From a virus (Duplodnaviria; Heunggongvirae; Uroviricota; Caudoviricetes): 47,442 nucleotides of DNA. The stretch's first letter is position 1, and each line of letters opens with the position of its first letter. The translations under genes and the position numbers were made by a program. The stretch lies in IMG/VR virus record IMGVR_UViG_2909298281_000005, one strand, 5' to 3'. The notes beneath the pieces are model-generated. The model saw only the letters and a program-made list of their open reading frames with translations. It ran no database searches and was not told the DNA's origin. Below, in pieces: positions 25,633 through 34,777 of this stretch.

Positions 25633-26172
25633 CTAGAGACTCTCTCCTTCCTCATCAGGAATTAATTCAGCAGCACAAGCCTCGTAGGATTTTTCCTGAA
25701 GAGTGTATCGCAGGTCATCAATGGCCTGCTGTACAACGCCGACGGCCTGAGGAGTCAGGGCGCAATCACGTTCAAGAACATCCGGAATTGTCTCCAGAAC
25801 CTGGACGACAGCCTTTCTCATGGACGAATAGACGATGACTACTTCATCAACTGGGATGAGTTTTCGCTGCTCCTTTTCCAGCTTGATCCTTTCATTTTCA
25901 GACTGGTACCAGTCCTTTCTCTCTTTCGGCTCCATACGGGATGGATCATGAACAGAGTCTGCTGCCTCATGCTTCACACTAAACAGGGCGGGCCCGACAT
26001 GCTGCAGGGCGTAAACGGAGTTCCCCCTGACAGTCGCAGCCACAGGAGTGTTGGCCGCGAGGAGCCGTTTTTTTACTGTGTCCCGGTGAAGCCCAAAGGC
26101 CTCGGCGATTTTAAAAACACTCCAGTAATAAGCATCACCGATCCCGCTCACATTTGACATAAGCAACTCCAT
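25633..26172 (-). CDS. terminase small subunit (Nu1-like)
   Basis: 179-aa ORF immediately upstream of the large subunit gene; N-terminal HTH-like region. Confidence 0.6.
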   Translation of the reverse strand: MELLMSNVSGIGDAYYWSVFKIAEAFGLHRDTVKKRLLAANTPVAATVRGNSVYALQHVGPALFSVKHEAADSVHDPSRMEPKERKDWYQSENERIKLEKEQRKLIPVDEVVIVYSSMRKAVVQVLETIPDVLERDCALTPQAVGVVQQAIDDLRYTLQEKSYEACAAELIPDEEGESL

Positions 26173-26469
26173 CTGGCAGGTGAAAATCAGGTTTATTTAT
26201 ATATTTCAATTAATTGCAAACTAGTCTAATGACAGGGAGAAAAAAATATTGTACAGCTGAAGAGAGAAATAACTTTTAATTATCAATAAATTACCAAACA
26301 TGCTGCCGCCGCCATGGAAATGCAAAAACTAGCCTTTTTCCGCGACGCTCCCGCCCCGTGGCAGGACACACTGCCGGGAGGACCCATTAAAAACTGCTAA
26401 GCTGGGCTCGTTATGGGTAACCGGCTCATTTAAACCGTCTGGTCTGTTTCCTCCGGCTCTACAAAAATA

Positions 26470-27147
26470 ATGTCCATCATTTTTAATGGACACTATCGTA
26501 TGAAACACCGGACCTGGATCACTGAAGCTTTACGTCTTCACTTTGAAGAACATTTACCCCGGGTTGTGGCCGGGCGTCGCCTGGGTGTACCAAAATCAAC
26601 AGTTTGTAGTATGTTCGTGCGCTTTCGGAGAGCTGGCCTTTCGTGGCCTTTGCCCGCAGGCATGTCGGAGCAGGAACTTGATGCCTGCCTTTACGGACAA
26701 TTTTCCACGGTACCAGTCGTACGTCCTGAAAGCACCGTTATATCCGAAGCCCCCGTGGTAAAAAAACGTCCCCGGCGGCCCAACTTCCCTTATGAGTTTA
26801 AAATCGCCTTAGTGGAGCAGTCACTGCAGCCCGGAGCCTGTGTGGCGCAGATCGCCCGGGAAAACGGAATCAACGATAACCTGCTCTTCAACTGGCGCCA
26901 TCAATACCGGAAAGGTGGCCTGCTGCCTTCCGGAAAAAATATGCCGGCACTGCTTCCCGTGACGTTAACGCCGGAGCCGGATAATAAAATCCCGGCCCCC
27001 GCACAGGAACCAGAGCAGATAAATACACCGTCCGACAGTCTGTGTTGTGAGCTGGTTCTGCCGGCCGGAACTCTCAGGCTTAAAGGTAAACTGACGCCGG
27101 CGTTATTACAGACACTTATCCGCGAAATAAAAGGGAGCAGCCACTGA
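26470..27147 (+). CDS. IS66 accessory protein (orf1/TnpA-like); true start may be internal
   Basis: First ORF of the IS; HTH-like segments. Confidence 0.65.
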   Translation: MSIIFNGHYRMKHRTWITEALRLHFEEHLPRVVAGRRLGVPKSTVCSMFVRFRRAGLSWPLPAGMSEQELDACLYGQFSTVPVVRPESTVISEAPVVKKRPRRPNFPYEFKIALVEQSLQPGACVAQIARENGINDNLLFNWRHQYRKGGLLPSGKNMPALLPVTLTPEPDNKIPAPAQEPEQINTPSDSLCCELVLPAGTLRLKGKLTPALLQTLIREIKGSSH

Positions 27148-27494
27148 TGATATCTCTCCCTGCAGGTTCGCGTATCTGGCTGGTTGCAGGTATCACCGAT
27201 ATGCGAAATGGCTTTAACGGCCTGGCATCAAAAGTTCAGAACGTCCTGAAGGATGACCCGTTCTCCGGACACCTGTTCATCTTCCGCGGACGCCGGGGTG
27301 ACCAGATAAAAGTGTTGTGGGCTGACAGTGACGGACTGTGCCTCTTCACCAAACGCCTGGAGCGGGGCCGCTTCGTCTGGCCAGTCACCCGTGACGGCAA
27401 GGTGCACCTTACTCCGGCTCAGTTATCCATGCTTCTTGAAGGTATCAACTGGAAGCACCCGAAACGAACGGAACGCGCTGGAATCCGCATATAA
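27147..27494 (+). CDS. IS66 orf2 (TnpB-like)
   Basis: 115-aa ORF MISLPAGSRIWLVAGITDMRNGFNGL... typical of IS66 orf2. Confidence 0.85.
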   Translation: MISLPAGSRIWLVAGITDMRNGFNGLASKVQNVLKDDPFSGHLFIFRGRRGDQIKVLWADSDGLCLFTKRLERGRFVWPVTRDGKVHLTPAQLSMLLEGINWKHPKRTERAGIRI

Positions 27495-27513
27495 CCCGTT
27501 GTAAAGTGAGGAT

Positions 27514-29085
27514 ATGGACACCTCACTTGCTCATGAGAACGCCCGCCTGCGGGCACTGTTGCAGACGCAACAGGACACCATCCGCCAGATGGCTGAATAC
27601 AACCGCCTGCTCTCACAGCGGGTGGCGGCTTATGCTTCCGAAATCAACCGGCTGAAGGCGCTGGTTGCGAAACTGCAACGTATGCAGTTCGGTAAAAGCT
27701 CAGAAAAACTTCGTGCAAAAACCGAACGACAGATACAGGAAGCACAGGAGCGAATCAGCGCACTTCAGGAAGAAATGGCGGAAACGCTGGGTGAGCAATA
27801 TGACCCGGTACTGCCATCCGCCCTGCGCCAGTCTTCAGCCCGTAAACCGTTACCGGCCTCACTTCCCCGTGAAACCCGGGTTATCCGGCCGGAAGAGGAA
27901 TGCTGTCCTGCCTGTGGTGGTGAACTCAGTTCTCTGGGATGTGATGTGTCAGAGCAACTGGAGCTTATCAGCAGCGCCTTTAAGGTTATCGAAACACAAC
28001 GTCCGAAACTGGCCTGTTGCCGGTGCGACCATATCGTGCAGGCACCAGTACCTTCAAAACCCATTGCACGCAGTTATGCCGGAGCGGGGCTTCTTGCCCA
28101 TGTTGTCAGCGGGAAATATGCAGACCATCTGCCGTTATACCGCCAGTCAGAAATATACCGTCGTCAGGGAGTGGAGCTGAGCCGTGCCACACTGGGGCGC
28201 TGGACAGGTGCTGTTGCTGAACTGCTGGAGCCGCTGTATGACGTCCTGCGCCAGTATGTGCTGATGCCCGGTAAAGTCCATGCTGATGATATCCCCGTCC
28301 CGGTCCAGGAGCCGGGCAGCGGTAAAACCCGGACAGCCCGGCTGTGGGTCTACGTCCGTGATGACCGTAACGCCGGTTCACAGATGCCCCCGGCGGTCTG
28401 GTTCGCGTACAGTCCGGACCGGAAAGGTATCCATCCACAAAATCACCTGGCCGGTTACAGCGGTGTGCTTCAGGCCGATGCTTACGGTGGTTACCGGGCG
28501 TTATACGAATCCGGCAGAATAACGGAAGCCGCGTGTATGGCTCATGCCCGGAGAAAAATCCACGATGTGCATGCAAGAGCGCCCACCTACATCACCACGG
28601 AAGCCCTGCAGCGTATCGGTGAACTGTATGCCATCGAGGCAGAGGTCCGGGGCTGTTCAGCAGAACAGCGTCTGGCGGCAAGAAAAGCCAGAGCCGCGCC
28701 ACTGATGCAGTCACTGTATGACTGGATACAGCAACAGATGAAAACACTGTCGCGTCACTCAGATACGGCAAAAGCGTTCGCATACCTGCTGAAACAGTGG
28801 GATGCACTGAACGTGTACTGCAGTAATGGCTGGGTGGAAATCGACAACAACATCGCAGAGAACGCCTTACGGGGAGTGGCCGTAGGCCGGAAAAACTGGA
28901 TGTTCGCGGGTTCCGACAGCGGTGGTGAACATGCGGCGGTGTTGTACTCGCTGATCGGCACATGCCGTCTGAACAATGTGGAGCCAGAAAAGTGGCTGCG
29001 TTACGTCATTGAACATATCCAGGACTGGCCGGCAAACCGGGTACGCGATCTGTTGCCCTGGAAAGTTGATCTGAGCTCTCAGTAA
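27514..29085 (+). CDS. IS66 family transposase (orf3)
   Basis: 523-aa ORF with N-terminal coiled-coil, CPACGG zinc-finger-like motif and DDE-type core. Confidence 0.9.
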
Positions 29086-29448
29086 ATATCAATACGGTTC
29101 TGACGAGTCGCTTACCGTTATGGCAACAATTCCATACGAAGTTTTATAAGTAAGAAGTTGCATGCCATCAGGCACCACCGCTGCTGATTACGACCATCAA
29201 TGTGAACCACAACCAGCGCATCGGGTTACAGATAATTCATATGCTCAACGAGCATAAAGTTCAGAACGTTTAACTTCAGGTGCTTTGTTTTAGCCATACC
29301 GTCCGTAACAACATGATGGAAGCGGGTACTTAGAGAACACTATGGATAGAAACTTGCATTACTAATCTCACAATTTATTCATACAGTTATATGATAAATA
29401 TATTATTAGTTATAACATGTTGAAAATTCATAAAGGAGAATTACCTGT

Positions 29449-30141
29449 ATGTCTAGAGAAGGCTCGTTGGACTTATTGCAAGAAGTTGAAGAAAGTCTTG
29501 GCATAATGAGACAGACACAGCATATCAAGCCTGTAAAAGTCAAAGCTATTTTGGAAAACTTACGAAGTTCCTTAGAGTATCTCGCTAATGATACCTATGA
29601 TAAATATATTTCTCCACGCAGTAATGATGAGCGCCCCAAAATATATTTCCCTTACGGAAAAAAAGAGTTTATTGATAAATTTTTCTCAAAGACGCTAAAA
29701 ATAAACCCACCATCATCTTCTCCATTATATAAAATTTTTACTTCTATACAGGATTATCACACTGGCGAATCTTGGTTGGAAATGATGTGTAATCTCACTA
29801 ATGAAGTAAAGCACAGACAACCAATCCCCTTAAGAGAAGAGAGTTCTGTTAAAGACCTAAGTGTGAGCGTAGATGGTTTTGGTTTAATCACAGCAGGAAG
29901 CTCAGCAAAAATTCTCTTTAAAAACAACCACATCAATGACAAAAAATTAGAAGACTTTACTTTCGAAAATGGGAAATTACAAAGAAGTGGTAATGGTGTA
30001 CCTTTAAACATAGTCATTACCGAAGAGAAAAAAATAAGATTCCATGGGAATGACCATGAAGTAATTCCTTTCATTGAATCATGCCTTATTAAAATCAGAA
30101 TTTTTATTATCGAAGCCTATAATGAGTTAGATAAGATTTGA
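29449..30141 (+). CDS. hypothetical protein, AT-rich orphan gene opposite to the late operon
   Basis: 230-aa ORF with AAGGAG 8 nt upstream of ATG and AT-rich promoter-like upstream region; no recognisable domain or TM segment. Confidence 0.6.
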   Translation: MSREGSLDLLQEVEESLGIMRQTQHIKPVKVKAILENLRSSLEYLANDTYDKYISPRSNDERPKIYFPYGKKEFIDKFFSKTLKINPPSSSPLYKIFTSIQDYHTGESWLEMMCNLTNEVKHRQPIPLREESSVKDLSVSVDGFGLITAGSSAKILFKNNHINDKKLEDFTFENGKLQRSGNGVPLNIVITEEKKIRFHGNDHEVIPFIESCLIKIRIFIIEAYNELDKI

Positions 30142-30309
30142 ATTACCCCCTAAACACCACAGCAAGTGGGAATTAACCACCCTATATTAAATATCCCTTT
30201 GTGAATGTGTTAAAGCTTATCGTCACAAAGGGATGCCCATTATTAATCTCACTAGGCAATGAATTTCTAATATTAAATTTCATCGCCAGATTTTAAATTT
30301 CCTGCAACC

Positions 30310-30846
30310 TTACTGGCCATGCTCAGATGGTCTGTAACGCAACTCATCAATTTCACGAATACTCGAAAAATTATTATTTCCTTTTTCTATCAACGCCAGT
30401 AGCGGCTTAATCCACAAGACAGCTTGGCAGTAGGTCATTGAGCTGGTGGTAGCGGTACGATCATAGGCTTCATTAGGTCTGCCGGTATCGGTGTGCATGG
30501 CGCTGGCACGTAAACGGTACGTGTATTCGAGCAACCCACCAGCGATATCAGCAGGAACAGGCAGATCACAGGTTTTTTCACGGCGGAGAATCTCCCGGTA
30601 TTCGATTACGGTTTTTTCGGTGCTGGTGTCGATCAGGGAGTTAAGACTGTTGGCATGTTCTGCAACCTGATTGAATCGATTGAAGTTGAATGCCTGGGTG
30701 GCGATTACCTGCCCCAGCATAGAGTTGTCACTTCGCAGAACGTCGTTATCGCTCTGAAGATTACTGGCGTGAGAGCAACTCTTGACGAGAGCGACCGAAA
30801 GGCCAGCAATAACGACAACGCCTATAAGATCCGGATTAATTTTCAT
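30310..30846 (-). CDS. Rz-like spanin (putative i-spanin)
   Basis: ORF starting at ATG overlapping the endolysin stop (ATGA), N-terminal TM segment; position after endolysin. Confidence 0.45.
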   Translation of the reverse strand: MKINPDLIGVVVIAGLSVALVKSCSHASNLQSDNDVLRSDNSMLGQVIATQAFNFNRFNQVAEHANSLNSLIDTSTEKTVIEYREILRREKTCDLPVPADIAGGLLEYTYRLRASAMHTDTGRPNEAYDRTATTSSMTYCQAVLWIKPLLALIEKGNNNFSSIREIDELRYRPSEHGQ

Positions 30847-31385
30847 TGCTCCAGCCCCCAGCACGCCAGTGCGCTTTCCTGATCGCGCCGCTCGACCTGC
30901 CCATAACAGCCATTCTTCTGCCCTTTTGTCAGGCGGCAATCACGCCCACCATCTTTTATCCACCAGCGAATCGCCTCGCATGCCCCCTTACGATCATCGG
31001 CATTCAGCCGCTTATAAAACGTCGACGGGAAACACTTACCGGGGCCAATGTTATAGGGACAAAATGACGCTATACCCGCTTTCTGTGGTTCGGTCAGTGG
31101 CACTTTAATATTGCGCTCCACCCATGCCAGCGCCTTATCCCGTTCAATGGCGTTAACCTGGTCGCATTTTTCCTTCGACAGTTTCATACCGGGAAAAACG
31201 GGTTTTCCATCCACCACCGTGGCACCCCGACAGATGGTCCAGATGCCGGAACCATCGCGGTATGCCGTTGTGTGGTTACCTTCTTTTTCATTCAGAAACT
31301 GGTCGAGAATATCAGGCGCAGGCGCACCGACGGCAATCAGTGCCAGAACGGCAGCCGACAGGCCGTATCTGATTTTTACGTTCAT
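30843..31385 (-). CDS. SAR endolysin (lysozyme with N-terminal signal-anchor-release segment)
   Basis: 180-aa ORF; N-terminal hydrophobic RYGLSAAVLALIAVGA followed by lysozyme-like E...D...T region. Confidence 0.8.
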   Translation of the reverse strand: MNVKIRYGLSAAVLALIAVGAPAPDILDQFLNEKEGNHTTAYRDGSGIWTICRGATVVDGKPVFPGMKLSKEKCDQVNAIERDKALAWVERNIKVPLTEPQKAGIASFCPYNIGPGKCFPSTFYKRLNADDRKGACEAIRWWIKDGGRDCRLTKGQKNGCYGQVERRDQESALACWGLEQ

Positions 31386-32544: not shown

Positions 32545-32940
32545 CTAACCTCGCATGTCAAAGCCAGATTTCTGAAAATCTCTGTAGACTTCCGGATTGT
32601 TGAAGGCCGGAAATTTGGCTTTATGAGCTGCGGACTTTATCGCTTCGCAATAGGCTTTATCACCGTTACTGGTAGATATTTTTAACGCCGTGCCATCCTG
32701 AGAGAATTCCATATGCAACCTGCATATTTTCCCTTTCCAGTTATGCGGCTCATCAAGTTTGGCATTAATTGCAGCTCTGATTCCCCGCGCTTGCGCCCCC
32801 CATTCATCCTGATCATCCCAGCGTCCTGAACTGCAACTACCTGTAGCAGTAGTTTTGTGGCAATCTGAAGGGTGTAAAGGTGTGCATCCCGCAACAAAAC
32901 CGACCCAAAAAGTCAACATAACGATTTTCTTTAATCCCAC
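32545..32940 (-). CDS. lipoprotein with TolA C-terminal-like domain (paralog 1)
   Basis: Signal peptide MGLKKIVMLTFWVGFVAGC (lipobox); C-terminus ...KICRLHMEFSQDGTALKISTSNGDKAYCEAIKSAAHKAKFPAF..PEVYRDFQKSGFD; GTG start with GGAG upstream. Confidence 0.6.
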   Translation of the reverse strand: MGLKKIVMLTFWVGFVAGCTPLHPSDCHKTTATGSCSSGRWDDQDEWGAQARGIRAAINAKLDEPHNWKGKICRLHMEFSQDGTALKISTSNGDKAYCEAIKSAAHKAKFPAFNNPEVYRDFQKSGFDMRG

Positions 32941-33090: not shown

Positions 33091-33519
33091 TCAGGGTTTA
33101 AAATCCAGCACCCCATTTTGAAATACTTTATATACTTCCGGCGAAGGGGGGGCAGGTATATCAGCATTCTTTATCGCATTCATCGCTTCACGACATAAAT
33201 CGAGGTCTCCACTTTCTCTTTTAACCTCCAGTAGAAGGCCATTCGGGGCCATATGCATTCTCAGTGTACACTCTTTTCCTGAATACTTACTCGCATCCCC
33301 GAACTGTTTTTCGATGGCGCTCTTGATTTGATGGGCATACAGACGGATATCCTCACTAACATCAGAAGTACGTTCAGATGAACTCACATACTGTGTCTCT
33401 ATTGCTTTATCGGAGTAATATGATGTACGGTCATGATAATTTGTCGATACAGCATCAGTGCACCCGATAATAATCCCACTAATAATCAACGTAAGAATTG
33501 ATGCGCTACGAAAACCCAT
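33091..33519 (-). CDS. lipoprotein with TolA C-terminal (domain III)-like domain (paralog 2)
   Basis: Signal peptide ...ILTLIISGIIIGC; C-terminus YAHQIKSAIEKQFGDASKYSGKECTLRMHMAPNGLLLEVKRESGDLDLCREAMNAIKNADIPAPPSPEVYKVFQNGVLDFKP parallels E. coli TolA C-terminus as recalled. Confidence 0.7.
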   Translation of the reverse strand: MGFRSASILTLIISGIIIGCTDAVSTNYHDRTSYYSDKAIETQYVSSSERTSDVSEDIRLYAHQIKSAIEKQFGDASKYSGKECTLRMHMAPNGLLLEVKRESGDLDLCREAMNAIKNADIPAPPSPEVYKVFQNGVLDFKP

Positions 33520-34516: not shown

Positions 34517-34593
34517 TGGCGCGCTGTACTGGATTCGAACCAGTGACCGATTGCTTAGAAGGCAATTGCTCTGTCCGGCTGAGCTAACAACGC
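34517..34593 (-). tRNA. tRNA-Arg (anticodon UCU)
   Basis: Cloverleaf readable: acceptor GCGTTGT/ACAGCGC, anticodon loop CTTCTAA, T-arm GGTTCGAATCC, 3-prime CCA encoded. Confidence 0.8.
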
Positions 34594-34701: not shown

Positions 34702-34777
34702 TGGTGGCCCTTGCTGGATTTGAACCAGCGACCTGGCGATTATGAGTCGCTCGCTCTCACCACTGAGCTAAAGGACC
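34702..34777 (-). tRNA. tRNA with anticodon CAU (Ile2/lysidine type or Met), ileX/ileZ-like
   Basis: Acceptor GGTCCTT/AAGGGCC, anticodon loop CTCATAA, T-arm GGTTCAAATCC, 3-prime CCA encoded; resembles E. coli ileX as recalled. Confidence 0.75.

What the first reader, a model, noticed from the sequence alone, without database searches (positions are those of the whole stretch)
29290..30141. AT-rich orphan gene at the bor position, opposite in orientation to the late operon
A 230-aa ORF with a strong RBS and AT-rich promoter-like upstream region sits between the packaging genes and Rz, the position where lambdoid phages carry lysogenic-conversion or exclusion cargo. It has no TM segments and no motif I can assign, and its low GC contrasts with the flanking phage genes. 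It is a candidate single-gene defence or abortive-infection function, but that is speculation.
Basis: inference. Interest (0 to 1): 0.5.

Follow-up and report, generated by a model that had tools for sequence, protein, structure and literature searches.

The report
Prophage cargo gene with HEPN-like fold
The flagged ORF is a real, conserved prophage cargo gene from a large unnamed protein family; its predicted fold resembles HEPN RNases and it sits in a slot where related phages carry proven anti-phage genes, so it is a good but untested candidate for a one-gene defence system.

Summary
Window 29449-30141 (+) encodes a 230-aa, 26.5-kDa soluble protein. It has 34% GC against about 50% in the flanks, its own Shine-Dalgarno sequence, and runs antisense to the late operon between the spanin genes and cos/terminase. 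An IS66 element (26417-29115) now separates it from the terminase genes.

It is not an orphan. It is WP_075034065 / phrog_13652, present in about 100 of 5,426 complete E. coli genomes. Its family has over 1,000 clusters (50% identity) across bacteria and some archaea. The family has no Pfam, NCBIfam or PADLOC model.

Homologues occupy the same lysis/packaging slot in prophages with at least four different head and lysis modules. One sits in the gpA-gpQ defence hotspot of a P2-like prophage. Phage phi80 carries the proven defence gene taiEcA in this slot.

Most likely this is a solo HEPN-like abortive-infection effector (confidence 0.45). No function has been shown. An apparent ATPase partner turned out to be a housekeeping transporter gene.

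The parts
29449..30141 (+). CDS of 230 aa (26.5 kDa, pI 6.6). It is WP_075034065.1 and a member of phrog_13652, a large family with no name.
   Evidence: ORF list. PHROG match E=2.6e-158. Exact-sequence look-up. 74 homologues and 1,029 representative clusters. Purifying selection.
29449..29814 (+). Residues 1-122: predicted helix 1 (3-23), helix 2 (28-53, carrying K32, E36, R39, S40, Y44, D48), an insert with the YFPY loop (66-69) and Q101, and helix 3 (109-122).
   Evidence: AF2 model, pLDDT 88.9. The same elements appear in a 30%-identical homologue. Conservation. Helices 2 and 3 are the most conserved segments.
29797..29814 (+). Codons for T117-N118-E-V-K121-H122. This is the family's signature at the end of helix 3, the position of Rx4-6H in HEPN domains.
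   Evidence: H122 is invariant in 144/144 sequences, K121 in 143/144, N118 in 134/144; position 117 is T, N or V and never R. The motif position in HEPN domains is taken from PMC3710099.
29815..30060 (+). Residues 123-204: beta-rich module inserted between helix 3 and helix 4. It is the most variable part of the protein.
   Evidence: Strands 128-198 in the model. Mean pairwise identity is 0.37, against 0.66-0.73 for helices 2 and 3.
30061..30138 (+). Residues 205-230: C-terminal helix 4 (205-229), which closes the bundle.
   Evidence: pLDDT 96-98.
29433..29438 (+). Shine-Dalgarno sequence AAGGAG.
   Evidence: Read directly from the sequence.
29411..29416 (+). -10-like TATAAC, a candidate promoter belonging to the gene. 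No TATAAN is placed here in L058, L061 and L093.
   Evidence: Alignment of upstream regions from 8 divergent loci; TATAAN is aligned at this site in 5 of them. The generic scan alone is not significant.
30193..30234 (.). Perfect 12-bp inverted repeat (ATCCCTTTGTGA / TCACAAAGGGAT, 18-nt loop) between the convergent ends of this gene and the spanin gene. It may be a bidirectional terminator.
   Evidence: Folding of 30142-30310 gives z = -3.58, and no shuffle folds as well. No U-tract follows, so terminator function is an inference.
29116..29448 (+). Native upstream intergenic DNA, starting with the right-hand copy of the IS66 target duplication (29116-29123).
   Evidence: Comparison with the uninterrupted locus L001.

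Best explanation
The ORF is a self-contained accessory cassette, with its own -10-like element, Shine-Dalgarno sequence and downstream hairpin. It encodes a cytoplasmic protein with a HEPN-type four-helix bundle. At the end of helix 3, where HEPN RNases carry Rx4-6H, the family has an invariant His in the motif T-N-x-x-K-H. Helix 2 carries conserved E36 and R39. A variable beta module of about 80 residues is inserted directly after the motif.

I propose that it is a solo abortive-infection or defence effector, comparable in logic to HepS, Tha and TaiEcA. Under this model the lysogen expresses it and it stays inactive. A component of a superinfecting phage switches it on, probably through the variable beta module. 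It then cleaves RNA, or otherwise blocks phage production, through the conserved H122/K121/N118/R39 site. When its own prophage is induced, late transcription running antisense through the gene would turn it down.

Shown here: the gene is real and conserved; the family is large and unannotated; the fold resembles HEPN; the motif lies at the HEPN catalytic position; no partner gene is conserved; the gene occupies cos-proximal accessory hotspots in two unrelated types of temperate phage.

Inferred: nuclease activity, the trigger, the defence phenotype and antisense silencing.
For: Fold:
- The AF2 model has pLDDT 88.9 and pTM 0.74.
- A 30%-identical Neisseria homologue is predicted to have the same architecture.

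Motif and topology, compared with the published HEPN definition (PMC3710099):
- The conserved motif lies at the end of helix 3.
- The residue at the R+1 position is polar (N118).
- Helix 2 carries a conserved acidic residue (E36).
- There is an insert between helices 2 and 3.
- The Csx1 family has a beta element directly after the motif, which is a precedent for the insert here.
- The Parep1/8 family keeps the His without the Arg, which is a precedent for the variant motif.
- H122 and P68 are invariant, and K32, R39, Q101, N118 and K121 are at least 90% conserved across 139-144 diverse members.
- Helices 2 and 3 are the most conserved segments and the beta insert the most variable.

Location:
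- Homologues of 50-83% identity lie antisense between the spanin or endolysin genes and the HNH or small-terminase genes in Enterobacter, Citrobacter, Raoultella and ETEC prophages. These prophages differ in their head and lysis modules.
- phi80 carries taiEcA, a proven defence gene arranged as a noncontiguous operon, in the same slot.
- A 31%-identical homologue lies between the portal gene and gpA of a P2-like prophage. That interval is a validated defence hotspot (PMC9122126).
- Another homologue lies next to a GH108 endolysin gene.

Other points:
- No neighbour is conserved across taxa.
- Neighbouring genes include toxin-antitoxin genes, mobile-element genes and some defence genes.
- Solo HEPN defences in prophages have precedents: HepS and Tha.
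Against: - The canonical arginine of Rx4-6H is absent in the whole family.
- No sequence or profile link to any HEPN family was found. Pfam is empty for the protein and for 139 family members. PDB profile searches find nothing. hhalign against the Tai/HepS-like family gives a probability below 1%.
- Foldseek against the PDB is not significant; the best HEPN rows have E about 0.6 and probability about 0.5.
- PADLOC gives no hit.
- Many family members lie among housekeeping genes.
- None of the 50,697 isolate phage genomes carries a homologue.
- I could not inspect model coordinates, so clustering of R39, E36, N118, K121 and H122 in space is assumed and not shown.
- There are no experimental data.
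Confidence: 0.45

Rival explanations
1. It is a non-catalytic HEPN-like binder. The protein would defend the lysogen, or exclude competitors, by physically sequestering or misfolding a structural protein of an incoming phage, as first proposed for Tai ('tail assembly interference'). The conserved His site would bind a ligand or protein and would not cut RNA.
For: The catalytic Arg is missing. HEPN families that have lost the motif are regarded as binding domains (PMC3710099). The occupant of the same slot in phi80 was described as acting on tail assembly. HepS both binds J and blocks tail-tip folding.
Against: Strict invariance of H122 and K121, and near-invariance of N118, R39 and Q101, from bacteria to archaea looks more like a catalytic or small-ligand site than a surface that co-evolves with variable phage proteins.
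Confidence: 0.2
2. It is a selfish or host-directed module unrelated to phage defence. Examples would be a stress-activated toxin or RNase that stabilises the element, or a regulator of host physiology during lysogeny.
Against: No conserved adjacent antitoxin ORF is present. There are no tandem repeats or Rfam RNA of the type III kind. No MNT partner is present. The repeated placement in cos-proximal phage hotspots points to conflict between phages.
Confidence: 0.15
3. It is a phage-benefit gene acting in the lytic cycle, or a counter-defence gene such as an inhibitor of a host immune system.
For: It is phage-borne, small and uncharacterised. Anti-defence genes also sit in accessory slots; phi80 has atiEcA next to taiEcA.
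Against: The gene is antisense to the late operon with its own expression signals, so it is not co-transcribed with lytic genes. The family is frequent in non-phage chromosomal contexts and in archaea. No isolate phage genome carries it.
Confidence: 0.08
4. It is a Bor-like envelope or virulence (lysogenic conversion) factor, or a spurious AT-rich ORF.
For: The position matches lambda bor. AT-rich DNA generates long ORFs by chance.
Against: There is no signal peptide, lipobox or TM segment. The family extends to marine, soil and archaeal genomes. The reading frame is intact, dN is far below a saturated dS, and residues are sharply conserved. The structure prediction is confident.
Confidence: 0.02

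Closest known systems
TaiEcA (phage phi80 orf63; Tai 'tail assembly inhibition' defence, PMC11364771)
   Same: It occupies the same genomic slot and orientation: antisense between Rz/Rz1 and cos, inside the Q-dependent late region. It is a single gene of similar size (204 aa against 230 aa) with no Pfam or PADLOC annotation. It is expressed in the lysogen as a 'noncontiguous operon'. Tai homologues are described as lying 'predominantly upstream of the packaging module'.
   Different: There is no detectable homology: hhalign probability is below 1%. The Tai family has a canonical invariant R-N-x-x-A-H and no beta insert. phi80 has an adjacent anti-defence gene, atiEcA; no equivalent conserved small ORF exists here.
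HepS (Gifsy-1 'HEPN solo' abortive-infection tRNA anticodon nuclease, PMC13043305; PDB 9oij)
   Same: It is a single-protein HEPN-type defence in a lambdoid prophage, with no partner gene and default-inactive. It is the model for the mechanism proposed here.
Tha (S. aureus prophage tail-activated HEPN RNase, PMC11087260)
   Different: Tha has 301 aa, with the HEPN domain at the C-terminus and a canonical RNSIMH motif. It has an inhibitor partner, Ith. It is found in Gram-positive phages and shares no sequence similarity.
Minimal HEPN toxins and substrate-binding domains (HepT/SO_3166 5yep, 7ae2, HI0074 1jog, 4nqf, YutE 1ylm; LsoA/RnlA)
   Different: They have 120-150 aa with no beta insert, carry a canonical Rx4H, and are usually paired with an MNT or other antitoxin. 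No sequence-level relationship was found.
Lambda bor
   Same: Same position and antisense orientation relative to the late operon (established lambda map, from my own knowledge).
   Different: Bor is a lipoprotein of about 97 aa with a signal peptide. This protein is cytoplasmic, has 230 aa and is unrelated.

Membership tests
HEPN superfamily (definition of Anantharaman et al. 2013, PMC3710099) | A four-helix up-down bundle that superposes on solved HEPN domains. | tested here: met
HEPN superfamily | A conserved His at the end of helix 3 or the start of the helix 3-helix 4 loop. | tested here: met
   H122 is invariant in 144/144 sequences and ends predicted helix 109-122.
HEPN superfamily | A conserved Arg 4-6 residues upstream of that His (Rx4-6H). 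| tested here: not met
   Position 117 is T, N or V. The motif is T-N-x-x-K-H. The polar residue expected after the R position (N118) is present. Parep1/8 is a precedent for a HEPN family that keeps the His without the Arg.
HEPN superfamily | A conserved acidic residue in helix 2 (typically Ex3[KR]) and an insert between helices 2 and 3. | tested here: met
   E36 (125/144) and R39 (139/144) lie in helix 28-53, spaced as Ex2R rather than Ex3[KR]. The insert spans residues 54-108.
HEPN superfamily | A profile-level sequence link to a recognised HEPN family. | tested here: not met
   Pfam gives nothing for the protein or for 139 members. PDB profile searches are empty. HHpred against the full Pfam/PDB libraries was not available.
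HEPN superfamily | Metal-independent RNase activity from a composite dimer active site. | not testable with these tools
   This needs biochemistry or multimer modelling. Model coordinates could not be inspected.
Tai / HepS-like solo HEPN defence proteins | Sequence homology to TaiEcA or HepS, with an invariant RNxxAH. | tested here: not met
   hhalign probability is 0.1-0.5%. No HepS hit appears in the PDB searches.
Tai / HepS-like solo HEPN defence proteins | A prophage moron upstream of the packaging module, antisense within the late operon. | tested here: met
   compared with phi80 and the text.
Tai / HepS-like solo HEPN defence proteins | Activated by, or targeting, the tail-tip protein J, with protection against siphophages. 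| not testable with these tools
   Needs phage challenge experiments and escape mutants.
Known defence systems (PADLOC-DB v2.0.0) | A match to any defence-protein HMM. | tested here: not met
   No families at E <= 10. The database dates from 2023, so newer systems are not covered.
HEPN-MNT (type VII) or other toxin-antitoxin modules | An adjacent conserved antitoxin, MNT gene or repeat RNA. | tested here: not met
   No conserved neighbour or small ORF. No tandem repeats or Rfam hit.
Two-gene ATPase-effector systems (AAA_21/ABC ATPase plus effector, such as PARIS, Septu, AbiL) | A conserved adjacent defence-type ATPase. | tested here: not met
   The overlapping 515-aa ATPase gene in the Neisseria loci is a YejF-type peptide-transporter ATPase, E=1e-179. 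It is absent from all other loci.
Bor-type lipoprotein | A signal peptide with a lipobox, and about 97 aa. | tested here: not met
   The N-terminus is acidic, there is no hydrophobic leader, and the protein has 230 aa.

The most novel reading that the evidence does not exclude
This is the founding member of a widespread, so far unnamed class of solo HEPN-like immune effectors. The class would use a non-canonical T-N-x-x-K-H / R39 active site and carry a built-in, fast-evolving beta-sheet sensor inserted at the catalytic loop. The effector would be switched on by a phage structural protein, and the carrier phage's own antisense late transcription would switch it off.
Probability: 0.3. Interest if true: 0.7.

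Novelty: new variant of a known kind. Interest (0 to 1): 0.55.

Why it matters
If the prediction holds, it adds a large family to the known single-protein abortive-infection systems. The family has over 1,000 clusters at 50% identity, spans bacteria and archaea, and is invisible to Pfam, NCBIfam and PADLOC. It would also be a natural test of whether HEPN chemistry can work without the canonical arginine. The beta module inserted at the catalytic loop suggests a simple sensor-effector design in one polypeptide. The work further supports a general rule: the cos-proximal junction of temperate phages is a reliable place to look for immunity genes. This applies to the lysis/terminase junction in lambdoid phages and to the gpA/gpQ interval in P2-like phages. 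If no phenotype is found, the gene remains an ordinary uncharacterised moron.

Tried and rejected
1. ATPase partner. A distant homologue in Neisseria overlaps a 515-aa ABC/AAA_21 ATPase gene by 4 bp, and that gene hits PADLOC mad3 and AriA. NCBIfam shows it is a YejF-type peptide-transporter ATPase with its permease genes upstream. The family gene is therefore an insertion in a housekeeping operon, and the lead was dropped.
2. Conserved neighbours. All-against-all BLAST of the +/-2 neighbours in 41 genome loci found none shared across taxa.
3. An Ati-like small ORF or antitoxin. ORFs of at least 30 aa were compared around nine homologous loci. Only frame artefacts inside the AT-rich gene recur.
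4. A type III toxin-antitoxin or other RNA element. No tandem repeats and no Rfam match.
5. Membership of the Tai/HepS family. Profile-profile comparison is negative.
6. Sequence links to any described family. Pfam, NCBIfam and PADLOC are empty. A Pfam scan of 139 family members gave only scattered chance hits. PDB sequence and profile searches are empty.
7. The AFDB Foldseek library was unavailable. Foldseek against the PDB was insignificant. BFVD gave one unnamed viral protein, A0A514TZW7, at E=3.9e-4.
8. Isolate phage genomes. Neither megablast nor tblastn found a match in 50,697 records.
9. Literature. Nothing was found for accession WP_000085746, the near-identical allele in locus L001. 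GiPD474 from Gifsy is an ATPase-domain protein and is unrelated.
10. The generic sigma-70 and terminator scans are not above chance.

Full report
**1. The observation**

Window 29449-30141 (+) is an ATG-initiated ORF of 230 codons. AAGGAG lies 10 nt upstream of the start codon. GC falls to 0.32-0.35 across 29200-30400, while the flanks are at about 0.5. The gene has GC 0.338 and GC3 0.309; the neighbouring terminase, spanin and lysozyme genes have GC 0.48-0.54. The protein is 26.5 kDa with pI 6.6 and has no hydrophobic leader or TM segment.

All flanking late genes are on the - strand:
- holin and YdfR-family gene;
- lysozyme, 30843-31385;
- spanin, 30310-30846, with an embedded Rz1-like lipoprotein ORF at 30435-30581;
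- DUF1441 small terminase, 25633-26172, and the large terminase.

One thing needs adding. An IS66-family element (tnpA/B/C ORFs at 26470-29085; element 26417-29115; 8-bp target duplication CGTTATGG) now lies between the ORF and the terminase genes. In the uninterrupted E. coli locus L001 the two are 571 bp apart.

**2. A real gene, and not an orphan**

The exact protein is WP_075034065.1, annotated 'hypothetical protein'. It matches phrog_13652, a family of unknown function, end to end. The DNA is present in 98-103 of 5,426 complete E. coli genomes. It is always chromosomal and always annotated as hypothetical.

Comparison with homologues from an ETEC strain, Enterobacter, Citrobacter and Raoultella shows intact reading frames. 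dN is 0.19-0.41 while dS is saturated, which indicates purifying selection.

A search of 5.8 billion proteins found 74 relatives. A profile search over 1.84 billion representatives found 1,029 clusters at E <= 1e-3 and 496 at E <= 1e-10. Nearly all of these are 215-250 aa long. Genome loci come from Gamma-, Beta-, Alpha- and Deltaproteobacteria, Bacteroidota, Deinococcales, Planctomycetota, Verrucomicrobia, Nitrospirae, CPR lineages and two archaea.

None of this family is covered by Pfam, NCBIfam or PADLOC. No solved structure is related by sequence.

**3. Anatomy of the protein**

AlphaFold2 with a 39-sequence alignment gives a confident model, with pLDDT 88.9 and pTM 0.74. Its elements are:
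- helices 3-23 and 28-53;
- a long segment with a loop and short helices, 54-108;
- helix 109-122;
- a beta-rich module, strands 128-198;
- a final helix, 205-229.

A Neisseria homologue of 30% identity gives the same layout.

In 139-144 diverse members, P68 and H122 are invariant. K32, R39, S40, L42, Y44, F67, Q101, W109, N118 and K121 are at least 90% conserved, and E36 and D48 about 87%. By segment, helix 2 and helix 3 are the most conserved (0.66 and 0.73 mean pairwise identity) and the beta module the least (0.37).

**4. What the fold resembles**

I compared the family with the published definition of the HEPN superfamily (PMC3710099). That definition includes:
- a polar residue (N, D or H) after the R;
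- a conserved acidic residue in helix 2;
- frequent inserts between helices 2 and 3;
- in Parep1/8, a family that keeps the His but lacks the Arg.

This family has T117-N118-x-x-K121-H122 exactly at the end of helix 3. Helix 2 carries E36 and R39, an insert separates helices 2 and 3, and a beta module follows the motif. The fold, the topology, the His and the R+1 polar residue therefore fit. The arginine itself does not, and there is no profile-level sequence link.

I could not inspect coordinates, so the spatial clustering of these residues is inferred.

**5. Genomic context**

The slot is conserved while the surrounding phage is not.
- In E. coli L001 and L063 the gene lies between the spanin gene and a DUF1441-type small terminase.
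- In an ETEC prophage a 69%-identical allele lies between a DUF2514 spanin gene and a Nu1-type small terminase of a lambda-type head module.
- In Enterobacter, Citrobacter and Raoultella prophages, homologues of 50-70% identity lie between a spanin or GH19 endolysin gene and the HNH/Terminase_4 genes of HK97-type heads.
- Most of the enterobacterial IMG/VR loci tested show terminase/HNH genes on one side and spanin/endolysin genes on the other, always with the family gene antisense.
- All these alleles keep 32-34% GC.
- Five of eight divergent loci share a -10-like TATAAN about 33 nt upstream of the ATG.
- A perfect 12-bp hairpin lies between the convergent gene ends.

Outside the Enterobacteriaceae, a 31%-identical homologue in a P2-like Rouxiella prophage lies between the portal and terminase genes on one side and replication gene A on the other. 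This is the cos-proximal gpA-gpQ interval that holds old and tin, and it was validated as a defence hotspot (PMC9122126). Another homologue follows a GH108 endolysin gene.

Elsewhere the neighbours are heterogeneous. They include housekeeping genes, Phd/YefM and PemK toxin-antitoxin genes, and a few defence genes (AriAB, MzaA, DRT). No neighbour is conserved across taxa.

**6. The closest experimental analogue**

In phage phi80 the same slot, antisense between Rz/Rz1 and cosQ, holds orf63, also called taiEcA. This single gene protects lysogens against HK544 and HK578. It is expressed in the lysogen and is arranged as a 'noncontiguous operon' within the Q-dependent late transcript (PMC11364771).

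The two proteins are not homologous: hhalign probability is below 1%, both with a single sequence and profile against profile. The window protein is therefore a different occupant of a proven defence slot.

Solo HEPN defences in prophages also have precedents. HepS of Gifsy-1 is a tRNA anticodon nuclease activated by the tail-tip protein J. Tha of S. aureus phages is an RNase activated by a minor tail protein and encoded antisense within an operon.

**7. Most likely mechanism, and what is inferred**

I consider a solo HEPN-like abortive-infection effector the best explanation, with confidence 0.45. Under this model:
- the lysogen expresses the protein from its own promoter;
- the protein is inactive by default;
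- the variable beta module senses a phage component;
- the conserved H122/K121/N118/R39/E36 site cuts RNA;
- antisense late transcription damps the gene when its own prophage is induced.

Only the gene's reality, the family, the fold resemblance, the motif position, the lack of a partner and the hotspot location are shown here. Everything else is inference.

The rivals are:
- a non-catalytic binder that blocks a phage component (0.2);
- a toxin or other host-directed function unrelated to defence (0.15);
- a lytic-cycle or counter-defence function (0.08);
- a Bor-like factor or a spurious ORF (0.02, effectively excluded).

**8. Dead ends**

The most tempting lead was a 515-aa ABC/AAA_21 ATPase gene that overlaps a Neisseria homologue by 4 bp. 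It also hits PADLOC ATPase models. It is in fact a YejF-type peptide-transporter ATPase with its permease genes upstream, and it is absent from other loci. No Ati-like small ORF, antitoxin, repeat array or Rfam RNA is present. No isolate phage genome in a 50,697-record collection carries a homologue.

**9. Verdict**

The interpretation as single-gene defence cargo is plausible and now better supported, but it remains untested.

The gene is best described as a new variant of a known kind. It is an unannotated, widespread HEPN-like family with a non-canonical motif and an inserted beta module, sitting in a phage defence hotspot. Interest is 0.55.

Noticed in passing
window 26417-29115: An IS66-family element (tnpA 26470-27147, tnpB 27147-27494, tnpC 27514-29085) with an 8-bp target duplication CGTTATGG (26409-26416 and 29116-29123) is inserted between the flagged gene and the terminase genes. 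All 30 listed E. coli matches (of 98) start at the junction, so none of them carries it. Two other genomes (H11, H12) have IS1 insertions in the same intergenic region.
   Followed up: partly
window 26345-26384 (- strand): This looks like the cos region. GGGTCCTCCCGGC...ACGGGGCGGGAGCGT parallels the phi80 cosQ/cosN end GGGTCCTTTCCGGC...ACGGGGCGGCGACCT. The predicted 12-nt cohesive end is GGGCGGGAGCGT (26345-26356). The IS66 insertion lies about 32 nt outside the cosQ-like element, so the flagged gene would be the last gene at the right end of the virion DNA.
   Followed up: partly
L064 (phage phi80) 6366-6980, - strand; alignment A5: The published Tai defence protein TaiEcA (phi80 orf63) has an invariant HEPN-type motif, NS[LM]RN[DE]xAH. 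A profile of its family hits the solved HepS structure (PDB 9oij) at E=5.8e-4, with the two RNxxAH motifs aligned. The text of the Tai paper never mentions HEPN, and the text of the HepS paper never mentions Tai or phi80. Both proteins are linked to the tail-tip protein J, so Tai may be a HepS-like nuclease.
   Followed up: partly
window 32545-32940 and 33091-33519 (- strand): Two prophage genes between the Q antiterminator and the holin encode small proteins with a TolA C-terminal domain (Pfam E=2.9e-14 and 2.4e-23). Both have lipobox-like N-termini (...FVAGC, ...IIIGC). They may be TolA mimics that block entry of colicins or filamentous phages.
   Followed up: partly
L055 3455-4912 (- strand); also L078, L079, L085, L087, L090, L094: In many Enterobacter prophages a 485-aa protein with no Pfam match is encoded divergently, 88 bp from the family gene, in the same lysis/terminase slot. 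It could be a second cargo gene or a possible partner. It is absent from the window.
   Followed up: no
L002-L005, L017, L018, L026 (Neisseria): The family gene is inserted inside a yej-type peptide ABC transporter operon, downstream of an AMP-binding enzyme gene. Its stop codon overlaps the start of the yejF-like ATPase gene by 4 bp.
   Followed up: partly
window 34517-34593 and 34702-34777 (- strand): The prophage carries two tRNA genes downstream of the antiterminator: tRNA-Arg(TCT) and a CAT-anticodon tRNA. ARAGORN calls the second one Met. RefSeq annotates the equivalent gene in L001 as Ile.
   Followed up: no
collection-level result: Homologues are found in prophages and in IMG/VR viral contigs (42 loci), but in none of 50,697 deposited phage genome records, by megablast or by tblastn at E <= 1e-3.
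   Followed up: partly
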